Assembly (NCBI GenBank): GCA_039090665.1
Contig: JAWCSL010000005.1
Coordinates: forward strand, 1-49,363
DNA: 49,363 bases
Source: Candidatus Aenigmatarchaeota archaeon
GTDB taxonomy: Archaea; Aenigmatarchaeota; Aenigmatarchaeia; CG10238-14; SCSR01
Reading direction: 5' to 3'
Made by a program: the position numbers and the translations under genes. This document shows positions 2,778 through 49,351 of the stretch, one piece after another. The notes below the pieces were generated by a model. That model did not search any database. It was not told where the DNA came from and worked only from the letters and a program-made list of their open reading frames with translations. Within the stretch, counting starts at the first letter, position 1; the number at the start of each line of letters is the position of its first letter.

Positions 2778-3203
2778 CTAGACTCTTTCCAGATTTTTCT
2801 TTCTGTTGATCATGGAATAGACTTTAAGCTGATCTTCTAACCTTGAAACAGGAATTCCTAATTTTCCAATTTTCACAAAAACTGGTCTTTTTAGCCTCCA
2901 CGTCAATGAAACCCATCTCCCATAAACTTTAGCTTTCAGATCTCCCATTACTTCAACATCAATTCCCTCAACTCTAAACTTCCCAAAATGAGAAGAAAAA
3001 ACTCTTGATTTGCTAAACTTCACTGGTTTAACTTCATATTCTTTCAAAATTGAAGAAATCTTATAAGCTCCTTCTTTCGTTGTTAAGATGTCTATATCCT
3101 TTGGTTCAATTTCTACTCCTTGCAAAGCTAGACTTGCACTTCCTACAACCATCCATTCAACTTTTCTTCCAAGCAATTCACACAACCTTTCCAATACTTT
3201 CAA
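2778..3203 (-). CDS. Minimal nucleotidyltransferase-fold protein, possibly with a premature amber stop
   Basis: VVGSASLALQG...PKDIDIL (GS and DxD motif); the frame continues *KIKEFLEKKI* to 2745. Confidence 0.75.
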   Translation of the reverse strand: MKVLERLCELLGRKVEWMVVGSASLALQGVEIEPKDIDILTTKEGAYKISSILKEYEVKPVKFSKSRVFSSHFGKFRVEGIDVEVMGDLKAKVYGRWVSLTWRLKRPVFVKIGKLGIPVSRLEDQLKVYSMINRKKNLERV

Positions 3204-7340: not shown

Positions 7341-8471
7341 TTGGGTTGGGTCTTGCTTCAAGCGGTTTTAGCATTAGAAGATGGAACAATTTTCAAGGGT
7401 GAAGGCTTCGGTTATCCTTGCGAAGCTTATGGCGAAGTTGTATTTAACACTAGTATGGTTGGTTACACAGAATCTCTGACAGATCCTTCCTACAGAGGCC
7501 AAATATTAACTCAAACCTGGATTTTAATAGGAAACTATGGTGTACCCCCTTTTTCTTTAATCGATAAATTTAACTTTCCATTACATTTTGAGTCAGAAAG
7601 AATACAAGTAAGAGGATATGTGGTTCAAGAAATTGTAAAAAGACCTAGCCACTGGTCAAACAATAAAAGCTTGGATGAATGGTTGTTTGAGCAAAAGATT
7701 CCTGGAATAGAAGGAATAGATACTCGTGAGTTAACAAAAAAACTAAGGAGTAAAGGTGTGATGCTTGGAATATTGAAAGTTGATGAGAAAATTGATGTTG
7801 AAGAAATAAGAGAAAAAATAAAGGAGATTGAAGATCCAAACAAAAGAGATTTAGTAAAGGAAGTGAGTGTAGAAAAACCAATAGAATACAATAGCGACTC
7901 ACCTCTTGTAGTGGTGATAGATTGTGGTGTGAAATTTGGAATATTAAGGAATTTGGCAGCAAGGAATGTTGGTTTAGTAAGAGTGCCTTATGACTATCCT
8001 GTAGAAAAAATTTTAGATTATGAGCCTTCAGGTATTCTCATTTCCAACGGTCCTGGAGATCCAAAAATATGTGAAAAAACAATCCAAACTGTAAAAGAAC
8101 TATTGGAAACAGATTTACCAATCATGGGAATTTGTCTTGGTTGCCAAATTCTTGCTTTGGCAGCAGGTGCTGAGACTTTCAAGCTAAAGTTCGGGCATCG
8201 TGGATCAAACCATCCTGTTCTTGATTTGTTTACCAAAAGATGCTACATCACAAGCCAAAATCATGGATATGCTGTAGATCCAAATAGCTTAAAAGAAACT
8301 GAATTCGAAATTCAATTCATAAATGCAAATGACAAGAGTGTTGAAGGAATAAAACACAAGAAAAAACCAATATTTGCAACTCAATTCCATCCAGAAGCTT
8401 CTCCTGGACCTTATGAAACTGAATTTTTGTTCGATTTGTTTGTGAAGGAGGTGAGGAAATATAAGAGATGA
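7341..8471 (+). CDS. carA: Carbamoyl-phosphate synthase small subunit
   Basis: LEDGT, GEVVFNT, SNGPGDP, GICLG nucleophile, QFHPE; the start may be the TTG at 7353. Confidence 0.97.
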   Translation: MGWVLLQAVLALEDGTIFKGEGFGYPCEAYGEVVFNTSMVGYTESLTDPSYRGQILTQTWILIGNYGVPPFSLIDKFNFPLHFESERIQVRGYVVQEIVKRPSHWSNNKSLDEWLFEQKIPGIEGIDTRELTKKLRSKGVMLGILKVDEKIDVEEIREKIKEIEDPNKRDLVKEVSVEKPIEYNSDSPLVVVIDCGVKFGILRNLAARNVGLVRVPYDYPVEKILDYEPSGILISNGPGDPKICEKTIQTVKELLETDLPIMGICLGCQILALAAGAETFKLKFGHRGSNHPVLDLFTKRCYITSQNHGYAVDPNSLKETEFEIQFINANDKSVEGIKHKKKPIFATQFHPEASPGPYETEFLFDLFVKEVRKYKR

Positions 8472-11400
8472 AAGCATAAAAAAAGTTCTCATACTAGGTA
8501 GCGGTGCAAAGTGTTGAAAAAACACGCACACTCAAAATAGGAGAAGCTGGAGAATTTGATTACTCTGGAGCACAAGCAATTAAAGCTTTGAAAGAAGAAG
8601 GAATAAAAGTGGTTCTTGTAAATCCAAACATAGCAACAATCCAAACAGATGAAAAGTTTGTAGACAAAGTATATTTCTTGCCTATAACACCTGAATTTGT
8701 AGAAAAAGTAATAGAAAAAGAAAGACCTGATGGAATTTTGTTGACTTTTGGCGGACAAACTGCATTAAATTGTGGTGTAGAGCTTCATGAGAGAGGTATT
8801 TTAGAGAAATATGGTGTGAGAGTTTTGGGAACAGGAATAGAAGCAATTGAAATTGCAGACAATAGGGAAAAATTCAAGAACATTTTGCTCAAGAACAATT
8901 TGCCTGTGCCAAAGAGTGAAAAAGTAAACAGCATAGAAGAAGCTGTGGAAGCTGCCAAGAAGATAGGGTATCCTGTAATGATAAGAGTTGCCTACACACT
9001 TGGTGGTCAAGGGTCTGGTGTTGCTGAAGATGAAGAACAATTGAAGAAAATAGCATCTTTGGGTCTGGTACACAGCAGGATAAAACAAATTTTGGTAGAA
9101 GAATATCTTGGAAAGTGGAAAGAAATTGAGTATGAAGTAATGAGAGATTGTGAAGACAATTGTCTGATTGTATGCAATATGGAAAATTTCGATCCTATGG
9201 GTGTACACACTGGCGAAAGTATAGTGGTTGCTCCTTCACAAACTTTAACAAACAGGGAATACCATTTGTTGAGAATCACAAGTTTCAAAGTCATAAGAGC
9301 TCTTGGAATAGTTGGTGAATGTAACATACAATTTGCTGTTAACCCAGAAAGTGAAGAATTCAAGATAATAGAAGTGAATTCCAGGCTATCGAGATCTTCA
9401 GCATTGGCATCAAAAGCCACAGGCTATCCGATAGCTTACATTGCAGCAAAATTGGCAATAGGCTACACGCTACCAGAACTTTTGAATAAAGTAACTCAAG
9501 TCACAACAGCTTGCTTCGAACCCGCTTTAGATTATATCGTGGTAAAAATTCCAAGATGGGATTTTCAAAAATTCAAAAATGTTTCTAGAAGAATTGGAAC
9601 ACAAATGAAGTCGATAGGAGAAGTAATGGCAATAGGAAGGAGCTTCGAAGAAGCTCTTCAAAAGGCTGTTAGAATGCTTGAAATTGGAAGAGAACTAACC
9701 GACACGAGCGAACTCACTAGCGATAAAGAAAAAATAAAGGAAATGTTAGAAAAGCCTACAGATGAAAGACTTTTCTATATAGTTAAAGCACTTCAAGTTG
9801 GTATGAGTGAAGAAGAAATTCACAAACTAACAGGAATTGATGAATGGTTCTTACACAAGATAAAGAGAATAGTTGAGATGGAAGAGGAAATAAAAAATTT
9901 GAATGAAGATACTTTGAGAAAAGCGAAAAAACTTGGTTTTTCAGACAAAAAAATTGGAGAGCTTGTAGGGAAGAGCGAAAGTGAAATCAGAGAAATGAGA
10001 AAATCTCTTGGAATAGTACCTGTTGTTAAACAAATAGACACTCTAGCTGCAGAATGGTCGGCCAAAACAAATTACCTTTACTTGACTTACAATGGTAATT
10101 ATGATGATATAGAAGTTGAGAAAAAGAGAAAAATTATAGTTCTTGGCTCAGGTTGCTACAGAATTGGTTCAAGCGTAGAGTTTGATTGGTGTTGTGTTAA
10201 TATGGCTTGGGCTCTAAAGGAAAGAGGGTTCGAGAGTATAATGATAAATTGTAATCCAGAAACAGTTTCTACTGATTTTGATATCATGGATAAGCTTTAT
10301 TTTGAAGAGCTCACCCTTGAAAGAGTTTTAGACATTTGTGAAAAAGAAGAACCTGAAGGAGTTGTTGTAAGTGTTGGTGGCCAAACACCAAATAACTTGG
10401 CTCTAAAACTTGCAAAAAATGGTGTGAAGATTATTGGAACTTCTGCCGAAGATATAGATAGAGCTGAAGATAGAGCTAAATTCAGCAAGCTTTTGGATGA
10501 ACTTGGAATTAAACAACCTAAGTGGGGAAAAGTTGAAAATCTGGAAAAAGCAAAAGAATTGGCTGAAAAAATAGGATATCCTGTTTTGATCAGACCTTCT
10601 TATGTGCTTTCCGGCTCTGCAATGAATGTTGCCACAAATGAATCTCAGCTAAGAGAATACTTGACAAAAGCAGCAAAAATTTCAAGAGAATATCCTGTAG
10701 TTATATCTAAGTTTATGACGAATGCTAGAGAAGTTGAAGTTGATTGTGTTTCTGATGGTGAAAATGTTTTTATTGGTGCAATAATTGAGCATTTGGAAAA
10801 TGCTGGCGTGCATTCAGGAGATGCAATAATGAGCATTCCGACACTTACAATAAGTGAAACAATAAAAAACAAGATAAGAGAGTATACTAGAAGAATTGCA
10901 AGAGCTCTCAGAATAAAAGGTCCTTTCAACATTCAGTACTTGGCAAAAGATGGGGAAGTCTATGTGATAGAATGCAACTTAAGGGCTTCAAGAAGTATGC
11001 CGTTCGTTTCTAAAACTATAGGAGTGAATTTGATGGAAATTGCTGCTGATGCTATACTTGGTAAAAAAATTAAAGATGGTGAATATTTGCCAAATGTTTT
11101 TGCAGTAAAAGTTCCGCAATTTTCTTTCATGAGATTGGAAGGTGCAGATCCCGTTACTGGAGTAGAAATGGTTTCAACAGGAGAAGTTGCCGCTTTTGGC
11201 AAAACTTTTGAAGAGGCTTTCATCAAAGCCCTGATAGCTAGTGGTGTTGAGCTTCCGAAAGCTAACGATGGTGTTTTGATTTCAATCGGTGGAGAAAAAA
11301 GCAAAATAATTGAAATTGCAAATAAGCTTGTGAGCAGAAAAATAAATATTTATGCGACTGAAAAAACTTCAGAAGAATTGAAAAAATACGGGATAGAAAA

Positions 11401-11665
11401 TGAAGTTGTGAAGAAGGTTAGCGAACCAAGACCAAATATTTTGGATTATTTGATGAATGGAAAAATAAAAATGGTGATAAATATTCCTTCAACAAATGGT
11501 GTAGTTAGTACACAAGCGTTAGATGATGAATACTTGATAAGGAGAAAGGCTGTAGAATTCAAAGCTTTTGTGGTTAGTAACCTTCAAGTGGCAAAAACTT
11601 TAGCAGATGTTTTAGATTTTTATCACAAAAATGGAGTTGAAAATTGTGTGGAGTTTGAAAAATAG
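8461..11665 (+). CDS. carB: Carbamoyl-phosphate synthase large subunit, join(8461..8509,8532..11665), 1060 aa
   Basis: Spliced N-terminus (M)[28 protein letters not shown]; two ATP-grasp domains and a C-terminal MGS-like domain; SD GGAGGTGA at 8447-8454. Confidence 0.95.
8510..8531 (+). other. 22-nt BHB intron in carB mRNA
   Basis: GTGC[AA^A]GTGTT-GAAAA-AACAC GCAC[AC^T]; contains an in-frame TGA; excision restores frame and the GAIKIG consensus. Confidence 0.88.
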
Positions 11666-12557
11666 GGACATAATTTCAATAAGGGATCTGAAAAAAGAAG
11701 AAATAGAGCTTATTTTAGATGAAGCTGAAGTTATGGAGAAAAAATTGAAAAATGAAGAACCTCTTTATCAGATGAAAGATAAAGTTTTGGCAAGTTTGTT
11801 CTTTGAACCTAGTACCAAAACAAGGTTGTCTTTCAATGCTGCCATGCAAAAACTTGGTGGAAAAGTGATAGAGATCGAATATTCTACAGCAACAAAAAAC
11901 CTCATCGACAAAGTGAAAATGATTGAAAGTTATTGCAATGTTATTGTTTTGAGACATCCTAGAGAAGGGTCTGCAAGATTAGCTGCCGAGATTTCAGAAA
12001 AACCTGTAATAAATGCTGGTGATGGTTCTAATCAACATCCTACCCAAACATTAATCGATTTGTTCACGATAAGAAAATTGAAAGGCAAGATAGAAGGTTT
12101 GAACGTGAGCTTGATTGGAGATTTAAAATACAATGCTGTGATAAAATCTTTGTTTTATGCACTTGCTGTTTTTAAAGCAAACATAACTCTTGCTTCACCT
12201 CCTGAGCTTCAAATGCCGTGGGAAAATATAGAAGAAGTAAGGGATAAGTTCGGTGTTAAAATTTTCCATACAAACAGTCTACATTCTGCTATTGAAGAGG
12301 CTGATGTTTTGTATGTTTGTGGTGTGAAAAAAGATAAGTTTGGCGACATTTTCGAAGCTGAAAAAATACAAAAGAATTTTAGGATAACTCAAGAAATTTT
12401 GGAAAATGCTAAAAAAGATATGGTAATCTTACATCCATTGCCTAAAGACATAGAAATTGATTCAAGCATCGACAAAACAAAATTTGCCAAATACTATGAA
12501 CAAGCCTCTTATAGCTTGCCTGTTAGAATGGCTTTGCTTTCCTTGGTGGTTGCATGA
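11631..12557 (+). CDS. pyrB: Aspartate carbamoyltransferase catalytic-subunit homolog with a degenerate active site
   Basis: FFEPSTKTRLSF, LRHP, NAGDG..HPTQ, HPLP; lies between carB and pyrI; Asp-binding residues substituted. Confidence 0.85.
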   Translation: MELKIVWSLKNRDIISIRDLKKEEIELILDEAEVMEKKLKNEEPLYQMKDKVLASLFFEPSTKTRLSFNAAMQKLGGKVIEIEYSTATKNLIDKVKMIESYCNVIVLRHPREGSARLAAEISEKPVINAGDGSNQHPTQTLIDLFTIRKLKGKIEGLNVSLIGDLKYNAVIKSLFYALAVFKANITLASPPELQMPWENIEEVRDKFGVKIFHTNSLHSAIEEADVLYVCGVKKDKFGDIFEAEKIQKNFRITQEILENAKKDMVILHPLPKDIEIDSSIDKTKFAKYYEQASYSLPVRMALLSLVVA

Positions 12558-13003
12558 GTGAACAAAGAATTGTAACAAACATAGAAAATGGGACTGTGAT
12601 AGACCATATTCCCGCGGGGAAAGGAATGAAAGTTTTTGAGATACTTAAATTGGAAAAACATGAAGACAGAAGTGTCATTTTAATAAACACTTTGAGTAGG
12701 AAAATGGGAAGAAAAGATGTGATAAAAGTAGAGAATAAAGAAATCGAGGAAAAAGAAATAAATAAAATTGCCTTGATAGCACCGAACGCCACCATTTCTA
12801 TAATAAAAAACTGGGAAGTGGTTGAAAAGAGAAAAGTTGTTTTACCTGAAATTCTTGAAAATGTTATAAATTGTCCGAATAAAAATTGCATAACTAATTC
12901 TGAAGAAAATGTGAAAAGTAAGCTTGTGGTTGAAAAGAAAGAACCACTCAAATTGAGATGTTGGTATTGTGAAAGAATTTTTGGGGTAGAAGAAATTTTA
13001 TAG
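12554..13003 (+). CDS. pyrI: Aspartate carbamoyltransferase regulatory subunit
   Basis: NGTVIDHI, KDVIKVE, Zn ligands CPNKNC and RCWYCE. Confidence 0.95.
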   Translation: MSEQRIVTNIENGTVIDHIPAGKGMKVFEILKLEKHEDRSVILINTLSRKMGRKDVIKVENKEIEEKEINKIALIAPNATISIIKNWEVVEKRKVVLPEILENVINCPNKNCITNSEENVKSKLVVEKKEPLKLRCWYCERIFGVEEIL

Positions 13004-46228: not shown

Positions 46229-46979
46229 TCAATTGACTCTTTTTTTTTCATTAGAGTAAAAAGTTTCCAAGACAACAAATTTAGGGCTTTTAACTTTTCT
46301 AAACACTTCTTCCAATTTTACCAAACCTTTTATAGAAAAAGATAAATGGTCCTGAAATTCTCCTTTATATTTTTTTACATTATGGAGGTGAAGAGTTAAG
46401 ATTTTTTTCGGAAATTTTTTAACCCAATCCTCAATTTCGATTTTTCTACCCCACACTGAACTTGCCTTAAATAAATGACCTGTATCTAAACAAATAAAAG
46501 CATTGTTAATTTTTTTAACAAACTCGAATTGCTCTGGTGTTGAAAAAGATTTTCTTCCCGTGTTTTCAAATGTCAAAGGAAAATCAACTTTTTTACACAA
46601 TTCTCTTACAATCTCCTATTTTTCTTTTTTCTATTTCTTCTTTAAAAAGAGAATAAGTTGAAATATCTATTATCTGGTGTAAATTAAAATACAAAGGATT
46701 AAATTTTGAGCAAAAATTCAAAATTTTATTCATAATTTTCAAACTGCTTCTAGATATTTCTTTTATTGGATTGAAAATTTGAACTGCCCCTTGGGGGCTT
46801 TCAAAAGCTATTTCCAATCCGTTATCTATTATCTCATTAAGTAGATGTATGCTTCTTTTTTGATACAAAAAAGGGAATTCCAAACTTACCTGTAAAAAAT
46901 TACAACCTAACTCAATGGCCCTTAAAATTTGAGAAAAAGAATCACCAACCCAAAAACTTAAACCAATTTTCTTTTTCAT
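46229..46979 (-). pseudogene. Frameshifted sugar-phosphate isomerase/epimerase (AP endonuclease 2 TIM barrel)
   Basis: The N-half (..YFNLH..) and C-half (TFEN, CLDTGH, LHLHN, QDH, VLE) lie in different frames, with the shift near 46610-46640. Confidence 0.72.
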
Positions 46980-48538: not shown

Positions 48539-49351
48539 ATGGATCCTTTACAAAACTTGAAAAACGAAATCAAGCTTAGAGGTTTTTCTGAAAGAACTTT
48601 GAAAATGTATCTATTTTACAATAAAAAATTTTTAGAATTTGTAAAAAAGAATCCTGAAGAGGTGAATGAAGATGACATTAAAGCTTTTATAGCAAAGAAA
48701 ATGGAAGAGGGAACTTCTGCCAAATCGATTGTATTGATAAAAGCTGCCTTAAAATTCTTTTATGACGAGGTTTTGAAAAAAGGTATTGTTAATTTCAAAT
48801 CTCCAAAAGTTCCAAAGAAGCTTCCAACAGTTCTGACAAAAGAAGAAGTAAAAAAAATAATTGATTCTATTGAGAATGAAAAACATAAACTGATTGTGAT
48901 GATGTTATATTCTTCTGGACTAAGGCTTAGTGAACTGATTAACCTAAAGGTAGGGGATTTAGAATTGAATGAAAGGATAGGGTGGGTAAGAACAGGAAAA
49001 GGTGAAAAGGATAGGATGTTCATAATTTCTGAAAAATTAGCAGAAAGAATTGGAAAGTTCATTGAGGGTAAAAGACCAGAAGATTATGTGTTCAGTGGAA
49101 GAAAAGAAAAGCTATCACCAAGAACAATACAAAAAATTGTTGCAAATGCTGTAAAAAAAGCAAATATAAATAAAAAAGTTAGTCCACATACTTTTAGACA
49201 TTCTTTTGCTACTCACTTGCTAGATGCAGGAGAAAATATAAGAAAGATACAAGAGTTGTTGGGACATTCTTCCCTCACCACAACACAAGTCTACACACAT
49301 ATCTCAAAAGAGGAATTGAAAAAGGTTAAAAGTCCTTTGGATGAGTTGTGA
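48539..49351 (+). CDS. xerA: Tyrosine recombinase XerA
   Basis: SGLRLSE, GKGEKDR, HTFRHSFATH, LLGH, TQVYTH with an N-terminal SAM-like domain. Confidence 0.9.
   Translation: MDPLQNLKNEIKLRGFSERTLKMYLFYNKKFLEFVKKNPEEVNEDDIKAFIAKKMEEGTSAKSIVLIKAALKFFYDEVLKKGIVNFKSPKVPKKLPTVLTKEEVKKIIDSIENEKHKLIVMMLYSSGLRLSELINLKVGDLELNERIGWVRTGKGEKDRMFIISEKLAERIGKFIEGKRPEDYVFSGRKEKLSPRTIQKIVANAVKKANINKKVSPHTFRHSFATHLLDAGENIRKIQELLGHSSLTTTQVYTHISKEELKKVKSPLDEL

What the first reader, a model, noticed from the sequence alone, without database searches (positions are those of the whole stretch)
11631..12557. PyrB homolog that has lost the aspartate-binding site
Seen versus known E. coli ATCase motifs: STRT->STKT (R54K); the 80s loop (S80/K84, KKGE) is shortened and replaced (EYSTATKNL); GDLKYGRT->GDLKYNAV (R167 lost); TRVQKER->CGVKKDK (R229 and Q231 lost). 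Carbamoyl-phosphate contacts S52, T53, T55, R105, H134, Q137 and HPLP remain. The ORF is intact and coupled to carAB and an intact pyrI, and no pyrC/D/E/F is in the window. Inference: either a carbamoyltransferase with a new acceptor or a pseudo-enzyme/sensor subunit.
Basis: partly seen in the sequence, partly recalled or inferred. Interest (0 to 1): 0.72.

Follow-up and report, generated by a model that had tools for sequence, protein, structure and literature searches.

The report
PyrB variant with rebuilt aspartate pocket
In a tiny hot-spring archaeon that lacks the rest of the pyrimidine pathway, the first pathway enzyme has lost every residue that holds aspartate yet has been kept under selection beside its normal partner genes, so it now does something other than its textbook job.

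Summary
The ORF at 11631-12557 has an ATCase catalytic-chain fold and passes NCBI's ATCase model. It reads STKT for STRT (R54K). It lacks five residues of the 80s loop (S80/K84/G85/E86 region) and has R167A, R229G, Q231K and R234K. R105, H134, Q137 and HPLP are kept.

This is not private decay. Twelve 90%-identity clusters, including three species genomes, form one clade that shares the changes. All 108 other close relatives are canonical. Within the clade dN/dS is about 0.09, and the new residues A169, G231 and K233 show synonymous variation. PyrI is fully canonical, and carA and carB are intact.

It is the only transcarbamoylase in a 620-kb Aenigmatarchaeota genome. I found no pyrC, pyrD or pyrF, no carbamate kinase, no NodU-type enzyme and no HypF there.

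It fails the ATCase signature (RxQxxER, R167) and the family-wide SxRT motif. It matches none of the three published pseudo-ATCase groups.

Best reading (0.42): an ATCase-derived, PyrI-bound protein whose acceptor pocket was rebuilt for another ligand. A non-catalytic pseudoenzyme is nearly as likely (0.33). One sublineage also lost S52-T55, and a sister genome deleted pyrB-pyrI but kept carAB.

The parts
7341..8471 (+). carA, glutamine-hydrolysing carbamoyl-phosphate synthase small subunit; intact
   Evidence: TIGR01368 scores 476 bits against a cut-off of 307. The GICLG and FHPE catalytic motifs are conserved in the alignment. dN/dS within the clade is 0.053-0.063.
8504..11665 (+). carB, carbamoyl-phosphate synthase large subunit; intact; its 3' end overlaps the pyrB-like start by 35 nt
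   Evidence: TIGR01369 scores 1537.5 bits against a cut-off of 1027. dN/dS is 0.053-0.061.
11631..12557 (+). pyrB-derived catalytic-chain homologue (P0001, 308 aa) with a rebuilt acceptor half-site
   Evidence: The AlphaFold2 model has pLDDT 93.1 and pTM 0.92. Its best structural match is 1ml4 at TM 0.91. dN/dS is 0.085-0.099.
11811..11822 (+). S61-T62-K63-T64 = E. coli S52-T53-R54-T55; R54 is replaced by K (AGA to AAA)
   Evidence: Alignments; codons. Among 149 family representatives this position is R in 146, Y in 1 and a gap in 2.
11871..11912 (+). shortened 80s loop (EIEYSTATKNLIDK), five residues shorter than in canonical relatives; the S..KGE segment is lost; K89, N90 and K94 are invariant in the clade
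   Evidence: This block has the lowest model confidence (mean pLDDT 74).
11952..12047 (+). R108 (= R105) through H136-P-T-Q139 (= H134, Q137): retained carbamoyl-phosphate and catalytic residues. R108-H109-P110 and K124-Q139 are invariant in all 12 clade members; R111 (K in some), I121, S122 and E123 vary
   Evidence: Invariant-column list; motif table.
12117..12140 (+). GDLKYNAV: G166N and R167A (loss of the aspartate alpha-carboxylate ligand)
   Evidence: A169 is invariant in 12 of 12 clade members, with codons GCT/GCT/GCC.
12318..12338 (+). CGVKKDK in place of the ATCase 240s-loop signature R-x-Q-x-E-R: R229G, Q231K, R234K
   Evidence: G231 is invariant in 12 of 12 with codons GGT/GGA/GGT, and K233 is present in 11 of 12 with codons AAA/AAG/AAG.
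12432..12443 (+). HPLP (H265-P268) retained
12554..13003 (+). pyrI, ATCase regulatory chain; canonical; its start overlaps the pyrB stop (ATGA)
   Evidence: TIGR00240 scores 177 bits against a cut-off of 148.55. None of the 35 columns that are at least 90% conserved in 107 canonical PyrI is changed in the variant clade. dN/dS is 0.057-0.076.

Best explanation
The gene is the in-place descendant of the authentic class-B ATCase catalytic chain of an Aenigmatarchaeota carA-carB-pyrB-pyrI operon. It is not a paralogue.

Shown:
- On the stem of one clade inside a single genus, the acceptor (aspartate) half of the active site was rebuilt. R167, R229 and Q231 were replaced by A, G and K. R54 became K. 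The 80s loop that caps the neighbouring subunit's site lost five residues.
- The carbamoyl-phosphate half (S52, T53, T55, R105, H134, Q137, HPLP), the fold and the PyrI partner were kept.
- Since that burst the protein, including its new residues, has evolved under purifying selection.

Inferred:
- The protein still assembles with PyrI into a nucleotide-sensing complex and still binds carbamoyl phosphate made by the translationally coupled CarAB.
- The enlarged pocket (Ala and Gly in place of two Arg) with its repositioned lysines now accepts a ligand other than aspartate.
- Most likely that ligand is a different amine, which the protein carbamoylates. The product would be one this host-dependent cell needs or exchanges.
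- The acceptor is unknown. No new neighbouring gene points to it.
For: 1. The clade-specific changes are fixed. Twelve clusters (P0001, P0005-P0015) share them, and all 108 other listed relatives are canonical. The clade is monophyletic (SH-aLRT 100) on a 0.36 substitutions/site stem, nested among canonical Aenigmatarchaeota ATCases.
2. Purifying selection followed the change. Pairwise dN/dS among G000, G002 and G004 is 0.085-0.099 at dS 0.87-1.18. For carB it is 0.053-0.061 and for thrS 0.055-0.062.
3. The new residues are themselves constrained. A169, G231, K89, N90 and K94 are invariant in 12 of 12 members, and K63 and K233 in 11 of 12. Overall, 61% of columns are invariant. Synonymous codon differences occur at A169, G231 and K233.
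4. The carbamoyl-phosphate-site residues R108, H136, Q139 and H268-P271 are invariant. Synonymous variation occurs at S52, H134, P266 and L267.
5. The change is specific to the active site. Of 122 columns at least 90% conserved in canonical relatives, 104 are retained. All 6 changed columns among the 44 fully conserved ones are active-site or 80s-loop positions.
6. The acceleration lies on the variant lineage. My arithmetic on the distances gives a pyrB dN branch of about 0.17 for G000 against 0.095 for G006. For carB the figures are 0.057 against 0.096.
7. This is the only recognisable carbamoyl-phosphate user in G000. There is one OTCace-family gene. I found no AA_kinase/carbamate kinase, no NodU-type enzyme and no HypF. 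Meanwhile carAB is intact and under selection.
8. PyrI is fully canonical.
9. The fold is intact.
10. There is no general Arg-to-Lys drift. R/(R+K) in carB is 0.32 in G000 against 0.34 in G006, at equal GC.
11. There is precedent. ATCase-branch proteins that replaced the RxQ motif are real enzymes with other substrates, for example UGTCase (passages of PMC4016543; PMC4581275).
Against: 1. R54K breaks the SxRT motif. Reviews describe this motif as characteristic of all known transcarbamylases, and all nine characterised families in Table 1 of PMC4581275 keep the Arg. The title of PDB entry 1acm calls Arg54 critical for catalysis. Among 149 representatives it is R in 146.
2. One sublineage (P0015, P0124, P0125; three contigs) has also replaced S52-T53-K54-T55 by N-I-E-L. 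Its ORF remains intact, and a conserved PyrI probably lies on the same contig, judged from equal contig length. The selected function there cannot need the carbamoyl-phosphate phosphate loop.
3. In G005 a syntenic contig has cleanly lost pyrB-pyrI and keeps carAB with dN/dS 0.045-0.083. So CarAB does not depend on this protein.
4. No candidate acceptor, acceptor-making gene or product-using gene was found. Synteny is identical to that of canonical relatives.
5. No expression data exist.
6. dS near 1 is close to saturation, so the dN/dS values are approximate.
7. G000 is 90.6% complete, so a missing gene cannot be excluded.
Confidence: 0.42

Rival explanations
1. Non-catalytic pseudoenzyme. The catalytic chain has lost catalysis (R54, K84 region, both aspartate arginines). 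It is retained only as the scaffold that holds PyrI in a c6r6-like complex, for example as a nucleotide- or carbamoyl-phosphate-sensing or structural partner of another protein such as CarAB.
For: - R54K and the loss of the S80/K84/G85/E86 segment hit residues used for catalysis as well as for aspartate binding.
- The P0015 sublineage also destroyed the S-T-K-T phosphate loop. Its ORF stays intact, and its PyrB/PyrI divergence ratio against the P0009/P0010-type lineage (16% against 11.4%) lies within the range of other clade pairs.
- PyrI keeps all 35 of its conserved columns.
- 104 of 122 conserved catalytic-chain columns are kept.
- No pathway for any product was found.
- Pseudoenzymes are known in this pathway. 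The DHOase domain of fungal CAD-like proteins is inactive (passage of PMC4581275). The inactive PyrC' of Pseudomonas ATCase is recalled from memory, not checked here.
Against: - Surface active-site residues with no obvious structural role (R105, H134, Q137, and S52/T53/T55 in 11 of 12 clusters) remain conserved. So do the new pocket residues, through synonymous change.
- No partner or sensing output is known.
- G005 keeps CarAB without this protein, so it is not an obligatory CarAB scaffold.
- No non-catalytic ATCase turned up in my searches for 'aspartate transcarbamoylase' with 'pseudoenzyme' or for 'aspartate carbamoyltransferase' with 'catalytically inactive' and 'paralog'.
Confidence: 0.33
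2. Still an aspartate carbamoyltransferase. Lysines (K63, K89, K94, K233, K236) would take over the roles of the lost arginines, giving a weaker or differently tuned ATCase whose product is passed to the host.
For: - Several substitutions keep or add positive charge (R54K, R234K, Q231K, E86-position K89, K94).
- The operon context is unchanged.
- Canonical relatives G006, G017 and G041 also keep ATCase with no pyrD or pyrF found. So carbamoyl-aspartate synthesis seems useful in this group without the rest of the pathway.
Against: - R167A and R229G remove both carboxylate ligands without replacement at those positions.
- The ATCase signature RxQxxER is absent.
- None of the 149 family representatives lacks R54, R167 and R229 together.
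- All 108 close relatives keep them, which implies strong constraint wherever aspartate is the substrate.
Confidence: 0.12
3. Slow pseudogenisation. The operon is a relic of a lost pathway and the gene is decaying, with its ORF not yet broken.
For: - No pyrC, pyrD or pyrF was found in the genus.
- The operon is eroding in a mosaic pattern. carA is deleted in G006. pyrB-pyrI is deleted in G005. Nothing was found in G001, G003 or G007.
- The P0015 lineage degenerates further.
Against: - dN/dS is about 0.09 over dS of about 1.
- ORFs are intact in all 12 clusters.
- The substituted residues are fixed and conserved.
- The changes are confined to the active site rather than spread over the protein.
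Confidence: 0.08

Closest known systems
Class-B (ATC II) aspartate carbamoyltransferase holoenzyme, PyrB6-PyrI6, of archaea and enterobacteria (P. abyssi 1ml4, M. jannaschii 2rgw, E. coli 1d09)
   Same: - Same fold (TM 0.91 to 1ml4).
- Best sequence match is 1ml4 at E 1.7e-90.
- Passes TIGR00670.
- Same carbamoyl-phosphate residues except R54.
- HPTQ and HPLP are present.
- An adjacent canonical pyrI overlaps its stop codon.
- The operon position is the same as the canonical gene of sister genomes G006 and G017.
   Different: - STKT in place of STRT.
- The 80s loop is five residues shorter and lacks the S..KGE segment.
- R167A, R229G, Q231K and R234K, so both ATCase signature elements (R167 and RxQxxER) are absent.
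- The host genome has no detectable pyrC, pyrD or pyrF.
Pseudo-ATCases of Barba et al. 2013 (PMC4016543), including ureidoglycine carbamoyltransferase (UGTCase) of Rubrobacter xylanophilus
   Same: - ATCase-branch proteins that are annotated as ATCase.
- They keep the N-terminal carbamoyl-phosphate motifs but have replaced the R230-Q232 aspartate motif.
- At least one of them is a real enzyme with another substrate (passages).
   Different: - Those proteins keep STRT; this one has STKT.
- Their third motif is HPLA, H[ST]LP or HSLP; here it is HPLP.
- Their RxQ replacement is AIA/AIS/SIA, GX[SC] or VXP; here it is G-V/I-K.
- They are paralogues beside an authentic ATCase, in catabolic clusters with carbamate kinase or hydantoin genes. 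This is the only copy, sits in the authentic carAB-pyrBI operon, keeps PyrI, and has no carbamate kinase in its genome.
- Its origin is independent, nested inside Aenigmatarchaeota ATCases.
Catalytically dead members of pyrimidine-pathway complexes (the inactive DHOase domain of fungal CAD-like proteins; Pseudomonas PyrC', recalled from memory)
   Same: A pathway enzyme that has lost catalytic residues but is kept, under selection, inside a multi-subunit assembly.
   Different: Those cases concern dihydroorotase and support an active ATCase. Here the ATCase chain itself would be the dead partner, and no active partner enzyme is identified. The fungal case comes from a passage of PMC4581275. 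The Pseudomonas case was not checked here.

Membership tests
Transcarbamylase superfamily (Shi, Allewell & Tuchman 2015; Barba et al. 2013) | SxRT motif (E. coli S52-T55) | tested here: not met
   The motif reads S-T-K-T in 11 of 12 clade clusters and N-I-E-L in P0015.
Transcarbamylase superfamily (Shi, Allewell & Tuchman 2015; Barba et al. 2013) | HPxQ motif (H134-Q137) | tested here: met
   HPTQ is invariant in the clade.
Transcarbamylase superfamily (Shi, Allewell & Tuchman 2015; Barba et al. 2013) | HxLP motif (H265-P268) | tested here: met
   HPLP is invariant in the clade.
Transcarbamylase superfamily (Shi, Allewell & Tuchman 2015; Barba et al. 2013) | Two-domain OTCace_N + OTCace fold | tested here: met
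   Pfam E-values are 1.6e-41 and 2.4e-29. The AlphaFold2 model has pLDDT 93.1. Foldseek gives TM 0.91 to 1ml4.
Aspartate carbamoyltransferase (EC 2.1.3.2) | Profile score above the curated equivalog cut-off | tested here: met
   TIGR00670 scores 333.1 against 236.95, and NF002032 scores 277 against 263. This is why databases name it ATCase.
Aspartate carbamoyltransferase (EC 2.1.3.2) | 240s-loop signature RxQxxER (R229, Q231, R234) | tested here: not met
   The loop reads G-V-K-K-D-K. The signature is quoted.
Aspartate carbamoyltransferase (EC 2.1.3.2) | R167 (aspartate alpha-carboxylate ligand) | tested here: not met
   Ala in 12 of 12 clade members. The position is R in 147 of 149 representatives.
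Aspartate carbamoyltransferase (EC 2.1.3.2) | 80s-loop S80 and K84 contributed to the neighbouring active site | tested here: inconclusive
   A five-residue deletion removes the canonical S..KGE segment. An invariant Lys (K89) remains at the loop tip, and its equivalence to K84 depends on the alignment.
Aspartate carbamoyltransferase (EC 2.1.3.2) | Carbamoylation of L-aspartate | not testable with these tools
   This needs an enzyme assay or complementation.
Aspartate carbamoyltransferase (EC 2.1.3.2) | Class-B architecture: a PyrI regulatory chain encoded next to it | tested here: met
   pyrI lies at 12554-13003 and passes TIGR00240 at 177 bits. All 35 conserved PyrI columns are kept. Physical binding was not tested.
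Pseudo-ATCase groups 1-3 / UGTCase (Barba et al. 2013) | Third motif HPLA, H[ST]LP or HSLP, and RxQ replaced by AIA/AIS/SIA, GX[SC] or VXP, with STRT kept | tested here: not met
   Here the motifs are HPLP, G-V/I-K and STKT.
Pseudo-ATCase groups 1-3 / UGTCase (Barba et al. 2013) | A paralogue beside an authentic ATCase, in a catabolic context (carbamate kinase, allantoinase, hydantoin genes) | tested here: not met
   It is the only OTCace-family gene in G000. No AA_kinase was found. It sits in the biosynthetic carAB-pyrBI operon.
Ornithine carbamoyltransferase and its branch (PTCase, DPTCase, DBTCase) | Profile score above cut-off, with the HCLP/HDLP and DxxxSMG-type 240s motif | tested here: not met
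   The best OTC model scores 162.9 against 306, and putrescine TCase scores 92.7 against 500. The motif here is HPLP.

The most novel reading that the evidence does not exclude
This would be an undescribed, independently evolved fourth kind of ATCase-derived protein, and the first known to keep the PyrI regulatory chain. Fed by a translationally coupled CarAB, a nucleotide-regulated c6r6-type complex would carbamoylate a non-aspartate acceptor and make a metabolite specific to a host-dependent hot-spring DPANN archaeon. Alternatively, if catalysis is gone, it would be the first non-catalytic ATCase, kept as a nucleotide or carbamoyl-phosphate sensor. Either way, the textbook allosteric enzyme would have been repurposed in place after its pathway was lost.
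Probability: 0.7. Interest if true: 0.65.

Novelty: new variant of a known kind. Interest (0 to 1): 0.55.

Why it matters
ATCase is the textbook allosteric enzyme, and its active-site arginines are among the most conserved residues in metabolism.

Here the authentic gene, not a spare copy, has swapped out all of them. It has nevertheless stayed under purifying selection with its regulatory subunit, in a 620-kb symbiont-type genome where I could not find the rest of pyrimidine synthesis.

That gives three things:
- A natural experiment on how a transcarbamoylase acceptor site is re-specified, or how an enzyme becomes a pseudoenzyme.
- A concrete annotation warning, because the protein passes the curated ATCase models and is named ATCase in public records.
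- A handle on an open question in DPANN biology: why some Aenigmatarchaeota keep an ATP-costly CarAB with no recognisable use for carbamoyl phosphate.

The canonical sister gene (G006) and the variant differ at few, defined positions. The question can therefore be tested directly with two recombinant proteins.

Tried and rejected
- **Second, canonical pyrB in the genome.** None was found with the protein query or with PF00185.
- **pyrE candidate.** The only PRTase hit (G000:C8) is a PurF-type amidophosphoribosyltransferase next to purD.
- **More variant-clade DNA from metagenomes.** It returned one 100%-identical contig (L021) plus 79 canonical loci. The dN/dS analysis therefore rests on three genomes only.
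- **Wider genome search.** Of 69 genomes of the GTDB family, only G000, G002 and G004 carry the variant. The P0009 and P0015 lineages are not among those species genomes.
- **Does the P0015 lineage keep carAB?** I compared contig lengths of CarA clusters. No CarA member lies on a contig of 18,925, 8,139 or 4,907 bp. This is inconclusive, not evidence of absence.
- **Compositional explanation for the Arg losses (AT-driven Arg-to-Lys drift).** Rejected.
- **Expression.** No RNA holder is listed for this stretch.
- **Other tools.** Complex prediction was not run. A PyrB-PyrI pass would rest on likeness to solved holoenzymes and would not separate the two leading readings.
- **Earlier scan notes.** A look-up near this place returned nothing.
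- **Literature.** The search 'Aenigmarchaeota' + 'carbamoyl' + 'pyrimidine' returned 0 papers. Of the 5 papers found for 'DPANN' + 'carbamoyl phosphate', no listed title or abstract start concerns this gene; I opened none of them. Supplementary tables of PMC8407114, which hold per-genome gene content, were not read and might list these genes.
Full report
**What is there**

The window is contig C11 of a 620,606-bp, 15-contig genome estimated 90.57% complete. Sources name its closest protein relatives 'Candidatus Aenigmatarchaeota'. DNA identical to this stretch occurs in hot-spring metagenomes.

Positions 7341-13003 hold four tightly packed genes on the + strand:
- carA (TIGR01368, 476 bits).
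- carB (TIGR01369, 1537.5 bits).
- The reported ORF at 11631-12557. Its start lies 35 nt inside carB.
- pyrI at 12554-13003 (TIGR00240, 177 bits). Its ATG overlaps the preceding stop.

An archaeal-type thrS follows. The rest of the window holds housekeeping genes: RNA polymerase subunits, ribosomal proteins, EF-2, EF-1alpha, PolB and SAM synthetase. So this is core chromosome, not an island.

**Checking the observation**

The 308-aa product (P0001) has both carbamoyltransferase domains. It passes NCBI's ATCase equivalog models: TIGR00670 at 333.1 bits against 236.95, and NF002032 at 277 against 263. Its best solved relative is the Pyrococcus abyssi catalytic chain 1ml4 (E 1.7e-90).

- R54K, so STRT reads STKT.
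- A 4-5-residue deletion in the 80s loop that removes the canonical S..KGE segment.
- G166N and R167A.
- R229G, Q231K, E233D and R234K.

S52, T53, T55, R105, H134, Q137 and HPLP are kept.

One nuance: an invariant lysine (K89) remains at the tip of the shortened loop. Complete loss of the K84 function therefore depends on the alignment.

An AlphaFold2 model built on 48 sequences is confident (pLDDT 93.1, pTM 0.92). Confidence is lowest in the 80s-loop block. The model superposes on ATCase structures at TM 0.91.

**Not a private accident**

Among the 120 best database relatives, 11 further 90%-identity clusters (P0005-P0015, 75-85% identical) carry the same substitutions. All 108 others, at 67% identity or less, are canonical.

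In a quick IQ-TREE of 52 rows, nine full-length variant rows were included; three truncated ones were left out. The variant rows form one clade (SH-aLRT 100) on a 0.36 substitutions/site stem. The clade is nested among canonical Aenigmatarchaeota ATCases, and the canonical P0016 is its sister.

Of 122 columns at least 90% conserved in the 108 canonical sequences, 18 are changed and near-fixed in the clade and 104 are kept. Of the 44 fully conserved columns, 6 are changed: R54, G85, E86, R167, R229 and Q231.

I also searched 1.84 billion 50%-identity representatives with a profile of the clade. The clade appears there as a single representative. Among the other 149 best hits:
- R54 is R in 146, Y in 1 and a gap in 2.
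- R167 is R in 147.
- R229 is R in 133.
- None lacks all three.

**Selection**

Three species genomes of one GTDB genus carry the variant in identical synteny: G000, G002 and G004. The gene order is rnz-cca-carA-carB-pyrB-pyrI-thrS-trmB-lig.

Nei-Gojobori dN/dS among them is as follows:

| Gene | dN/dS |
|---|---|
| variant pyrB | 0.085-0.099 (dS 0.87-1.18) |
| carA | 0.053-0.063 |
| carB | 0.053-0.061 |
| pyrI | 0.057-0.076 |
| thrS | 0.055-0.062 |

A dS near 1 is close to saturation, so these are rough values. The neighbouring genes, measured the same way, are a fair yardstick.

At the codon level the new residues carry synonymous differences: A169 is GCT/GCT/GCC, G231 is GGT/GGA/GGT and K233 is AAA/AAG/AAG. 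So do the retained S52, H134, P266 and L267.

Within the clade, 61% of columns are invariant. A169, G231, K89, N90, K94, R108, H136, Q139 and HPLP all are.

Against the canonical same-genus genome G006, PyrB is 61% identical. carB is 77% and thrS is 85% identical. The canonical pair G006-G017 shows equal divergence for pyrB (67.3%) and carB (67.8%). My three-taxon arithmetic on those distances gives these dN branch lengths:

| Gene | G000 branch | G006 branch |
|---|---|---|
| pyrB | about 0.17 | 0.095 |
| carB | 0.057 | 0.096 |

That is roughly a three-fold acceleration specific to pyrB on the variant lineage, followed by constraint.

There is no general Arg-to-Lys drift. R/(R+K) in carB is 0.32 against 0.34, at similar GC.

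**The partner**

PyrI shows the same clade structure: seven clusters at 76-100% identity, then 69% or less. None of the 35 columns at least 90% conserved in 107 canonical PyrI is changed, and the four zinc cysteines are present. The remodelling is therefore confined to the catalytic chain's active site.

**Genomic context**

P0001 is the only OTCace-family gene in G000.

Pathway genes searched for in the genus:
- OMP decarboxylase (PF00215) and dihydroorotate dehydrogenase (PF01180) were not found above cut-off in any of the 8 genomes of the genus, nor in G017. G001 has one sub-threshold DHO_dh hit of 22 bits.
- Amidohydro_1 reached its cut-off in none of G000, G002, G004, G006 and G017.
- The only PRTase hit in G000 is PurF-type, next to purD.

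Other carbamoyl-phosphate users and related genes:
- No AA_kinase/carbamate kinase in G000, G004, G005 or G006.
- A NodU-type carbamoyltransferase only in G006.
- No HypF in any of the five genomes.
- CTP synthase in G002, G004 and G006 but not found in G000 or G005.

By contrast, genus g34 has canonical PyrB about 60% identical to the variant. It has pyrF in 4 of 4 genomes searched and pyrD above cut-off in 1 of 4.

So, inferring from these counts, the downstream pathway was lost in the g1 and g11 lineages while carAB-pyrBI stayed. Only afterwards was the aspartate site rebuilt in part of g1. Passages of PMC8407114 agree that most Aenigmarchaeota lack de novo nucleotide synthesis.

**Mosaic erosion in the sisters**

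- G006 (93% complete, 9 contigs) keeps carB, canonical pyrB and pyrI. It has no carA at the locus or elsewhere, and no remnant of it.
- A 131-kb contig of G005 has the same synteny with intact carA and carB, with dN/dS of 0.045-0.083 against the others. There pyrB and pyrI are cleanly absent, and thrS is only 46% identical to the window's thrS. This suggests that a pyrB-pyrI-thrS segment was replaced.
- G005 has no OTCace_N match at all.
- G005 is a 1.7-Mb bin with 4% contamination. It also holds a second, truncated carAB.
- These cases show that CarAB can persist without this protein, and the reverse.

**The P0015 sublineage**

Three near-identical sequences from three contigs (P0015, P0124, P0125) read EPNIELRI where the others read EPSTKTRL. 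They have therefore lost S52, T53, K54 and T55. They also have K233D.

P0015 differs from its nearest relative P0010 at 49 positions. These are densest between residues 52 and 96.

A PyrI cluster (P0127) has the same longest-contig length (18,925 bp) as P0125. It is 88.6% identical to the PyrI of the neighbouring lineage. That the two lie on one contig is inferred from length only. I could not establish whether carAB accompanies them.

**Comparison with what is known**

Shi, Allewell and Tuchman (PMC4581275; I read the abstract, its sections 8 and 9, and Table 1 passages) make these points:
- RxQxxER distinguishes ATCase.
- R167, R229 and Q231 are the aspartate ligands.
- S80* and K84* come from the neighbouring chain.
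- All nine families in their Table 1 keep the Arg of SxRT.

Barba et al. (PMC4016543, passages including Table 1) defined three groups of 'pseudo-ATCases'. These are paralogues that keep STRT and HPTQ. Their third motif is HPLA, H[ST]LP or HSLP. They replace RxQ by AIA/AIS/SIA, GX[SC] or VXP. They sit in catabolic clusters, and one is the experimentally supported UGTCase.

The present protein has STKT, HPTQ, HPLP and G-V/I-K. It is the sole copy, sits in the biosynthetic operon with PyrI, and arose inside Aenigmatarchaeota ATCases. It therefore fails membership of ATCase sensu stricto and of each pseudo-ATCase group. It is best described as a new, independent variant of the known phenomenon 'ATCase-derived protein with a replaced aspartate site'.

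Earlier notes of this scan describe other such proteins in bacteria. Those gave me the lead to Barba et al. but concern different, paralogous genes.

My searches for a non-catalytic ATCase found nothing relevant.

**Interpretation**

The shown steps are these: an in-place origin, an active-site-restricted burst of change, later purifying selection that includes the new residues, a canonical PyrI, an intact CarAB, and no other recognisable carbamoyl-phosphate user or pyrimidine pathway in G000.

The inferred step is what the pocket now does.

I favour a functional pocket with a new ligand, most likely a carbamoyl acceptor other than aspartate (0.42). The reasons are that both the carbamoyl-phosphate half-site and the new Ala, Gly and Lys residues are conserved through synonymous change, and that an ATP-costly CarAB is translationally coupled to the gene.

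The pseudoenzyme reading is close behind (0.33). R54K breaks a motif that no characterised transcarbamylase lacks. The P0015 lineage has discarded the phosphate loop while keeping the protein and PyrI. G005 shows that CarAB does not need this protein.

Residual ATCase activity through lysines (0.12) and slow decay (0.08) are less likely.

**Verdict**

The finding is of moderate to good interest. It is a well-delimited, testable case of the textbook allosteric enzyme repurposed after the loss of its pathway, and public databases currently annotate it as ordinary ATCase.

Noticed in passing
L103 (G006:C1:234000-253000), between carB and the CCA-adding enzyme gene: The same-genus genome G006 keeps carB, canonical pyrB and pyrI. 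It has no carA at the locus or anywhere else in the genome, and no remnant in the 480-bp gap. It would thus have a large CPSase subunit without its glutaminase partner. G006 is also the only one of five genomes with a NodU-type carbamoyltransferase (G006:C2:83025-84029).
   Followed up: partly
L105 (G005:C1:42000-60000), positions 10698-10954: In G005 the syntenic locus goes straight from carB to thrS. pyrB and pyrI are cleanly absent. This thrS is only 46% identical to the window's, while flanking genes are 78-87% identical, which suggests replacement of a pyrB-pyrI-thrS segment by a foreign thrS. carAB stays intact although the genome has no transcarbamoylase, so the sink for carbamoyl phosphate there is unknown.
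   Followed up: partly
G000:C8:78504-81245 (L107:4505-7245) and G000:C8:5678-6001: This 620-kb genome carries a divergent purD / purF-type amidophosphoribosyltransferase pair and one AIRS-domain protein. The AIRS domain was not found in four other genomes of the genus. These look like fragments of purine synthesis in a lineage reported to lack de novo nucleotide synthesis.
   Followed up: partly
proteins P0168, P0176, P0181, P0238: Some PyrI relatives of 228-233 aa carry an extra PF02700 (PurS-like) domain fused to the regulatory chain.
   Followed up: no
proteins P0248, P0271, P0277, P0296, P0303, P0346, P0371, P0381: Several other 50%-identity representatives of the ATCase family keep STRT and R167 but have non-canonical 240s loops with no RxQ. 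These are possibly further uncharacterised ATCase-derived carbamoyltransferases. One representative (P0360) has Tyr at the R54 position.
   Followed up: no
window 46229-46979 (-): Two adjacent short ORFs of 123 and 128 aa overlap by 8 nt. The first matches only the C-terminal half of the AP_endonuc_2/xylose-isomerase-like TIM barrel. They may be one gene split by a frameshift.
   Followed up: no
window 48539-49351 (+): A tyrosine recombinase (phage-integrase family, XerC/D-like) lies at the very end of the contig.
   Followed up: no
window 2778-3203 (-): A small ORF has a weak match (5.9e-11) to the aminoglycoside-2''-adenylyltransferase-type nucleotidyltransferase family. It is 94% identical in G002.
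   Followed up: no
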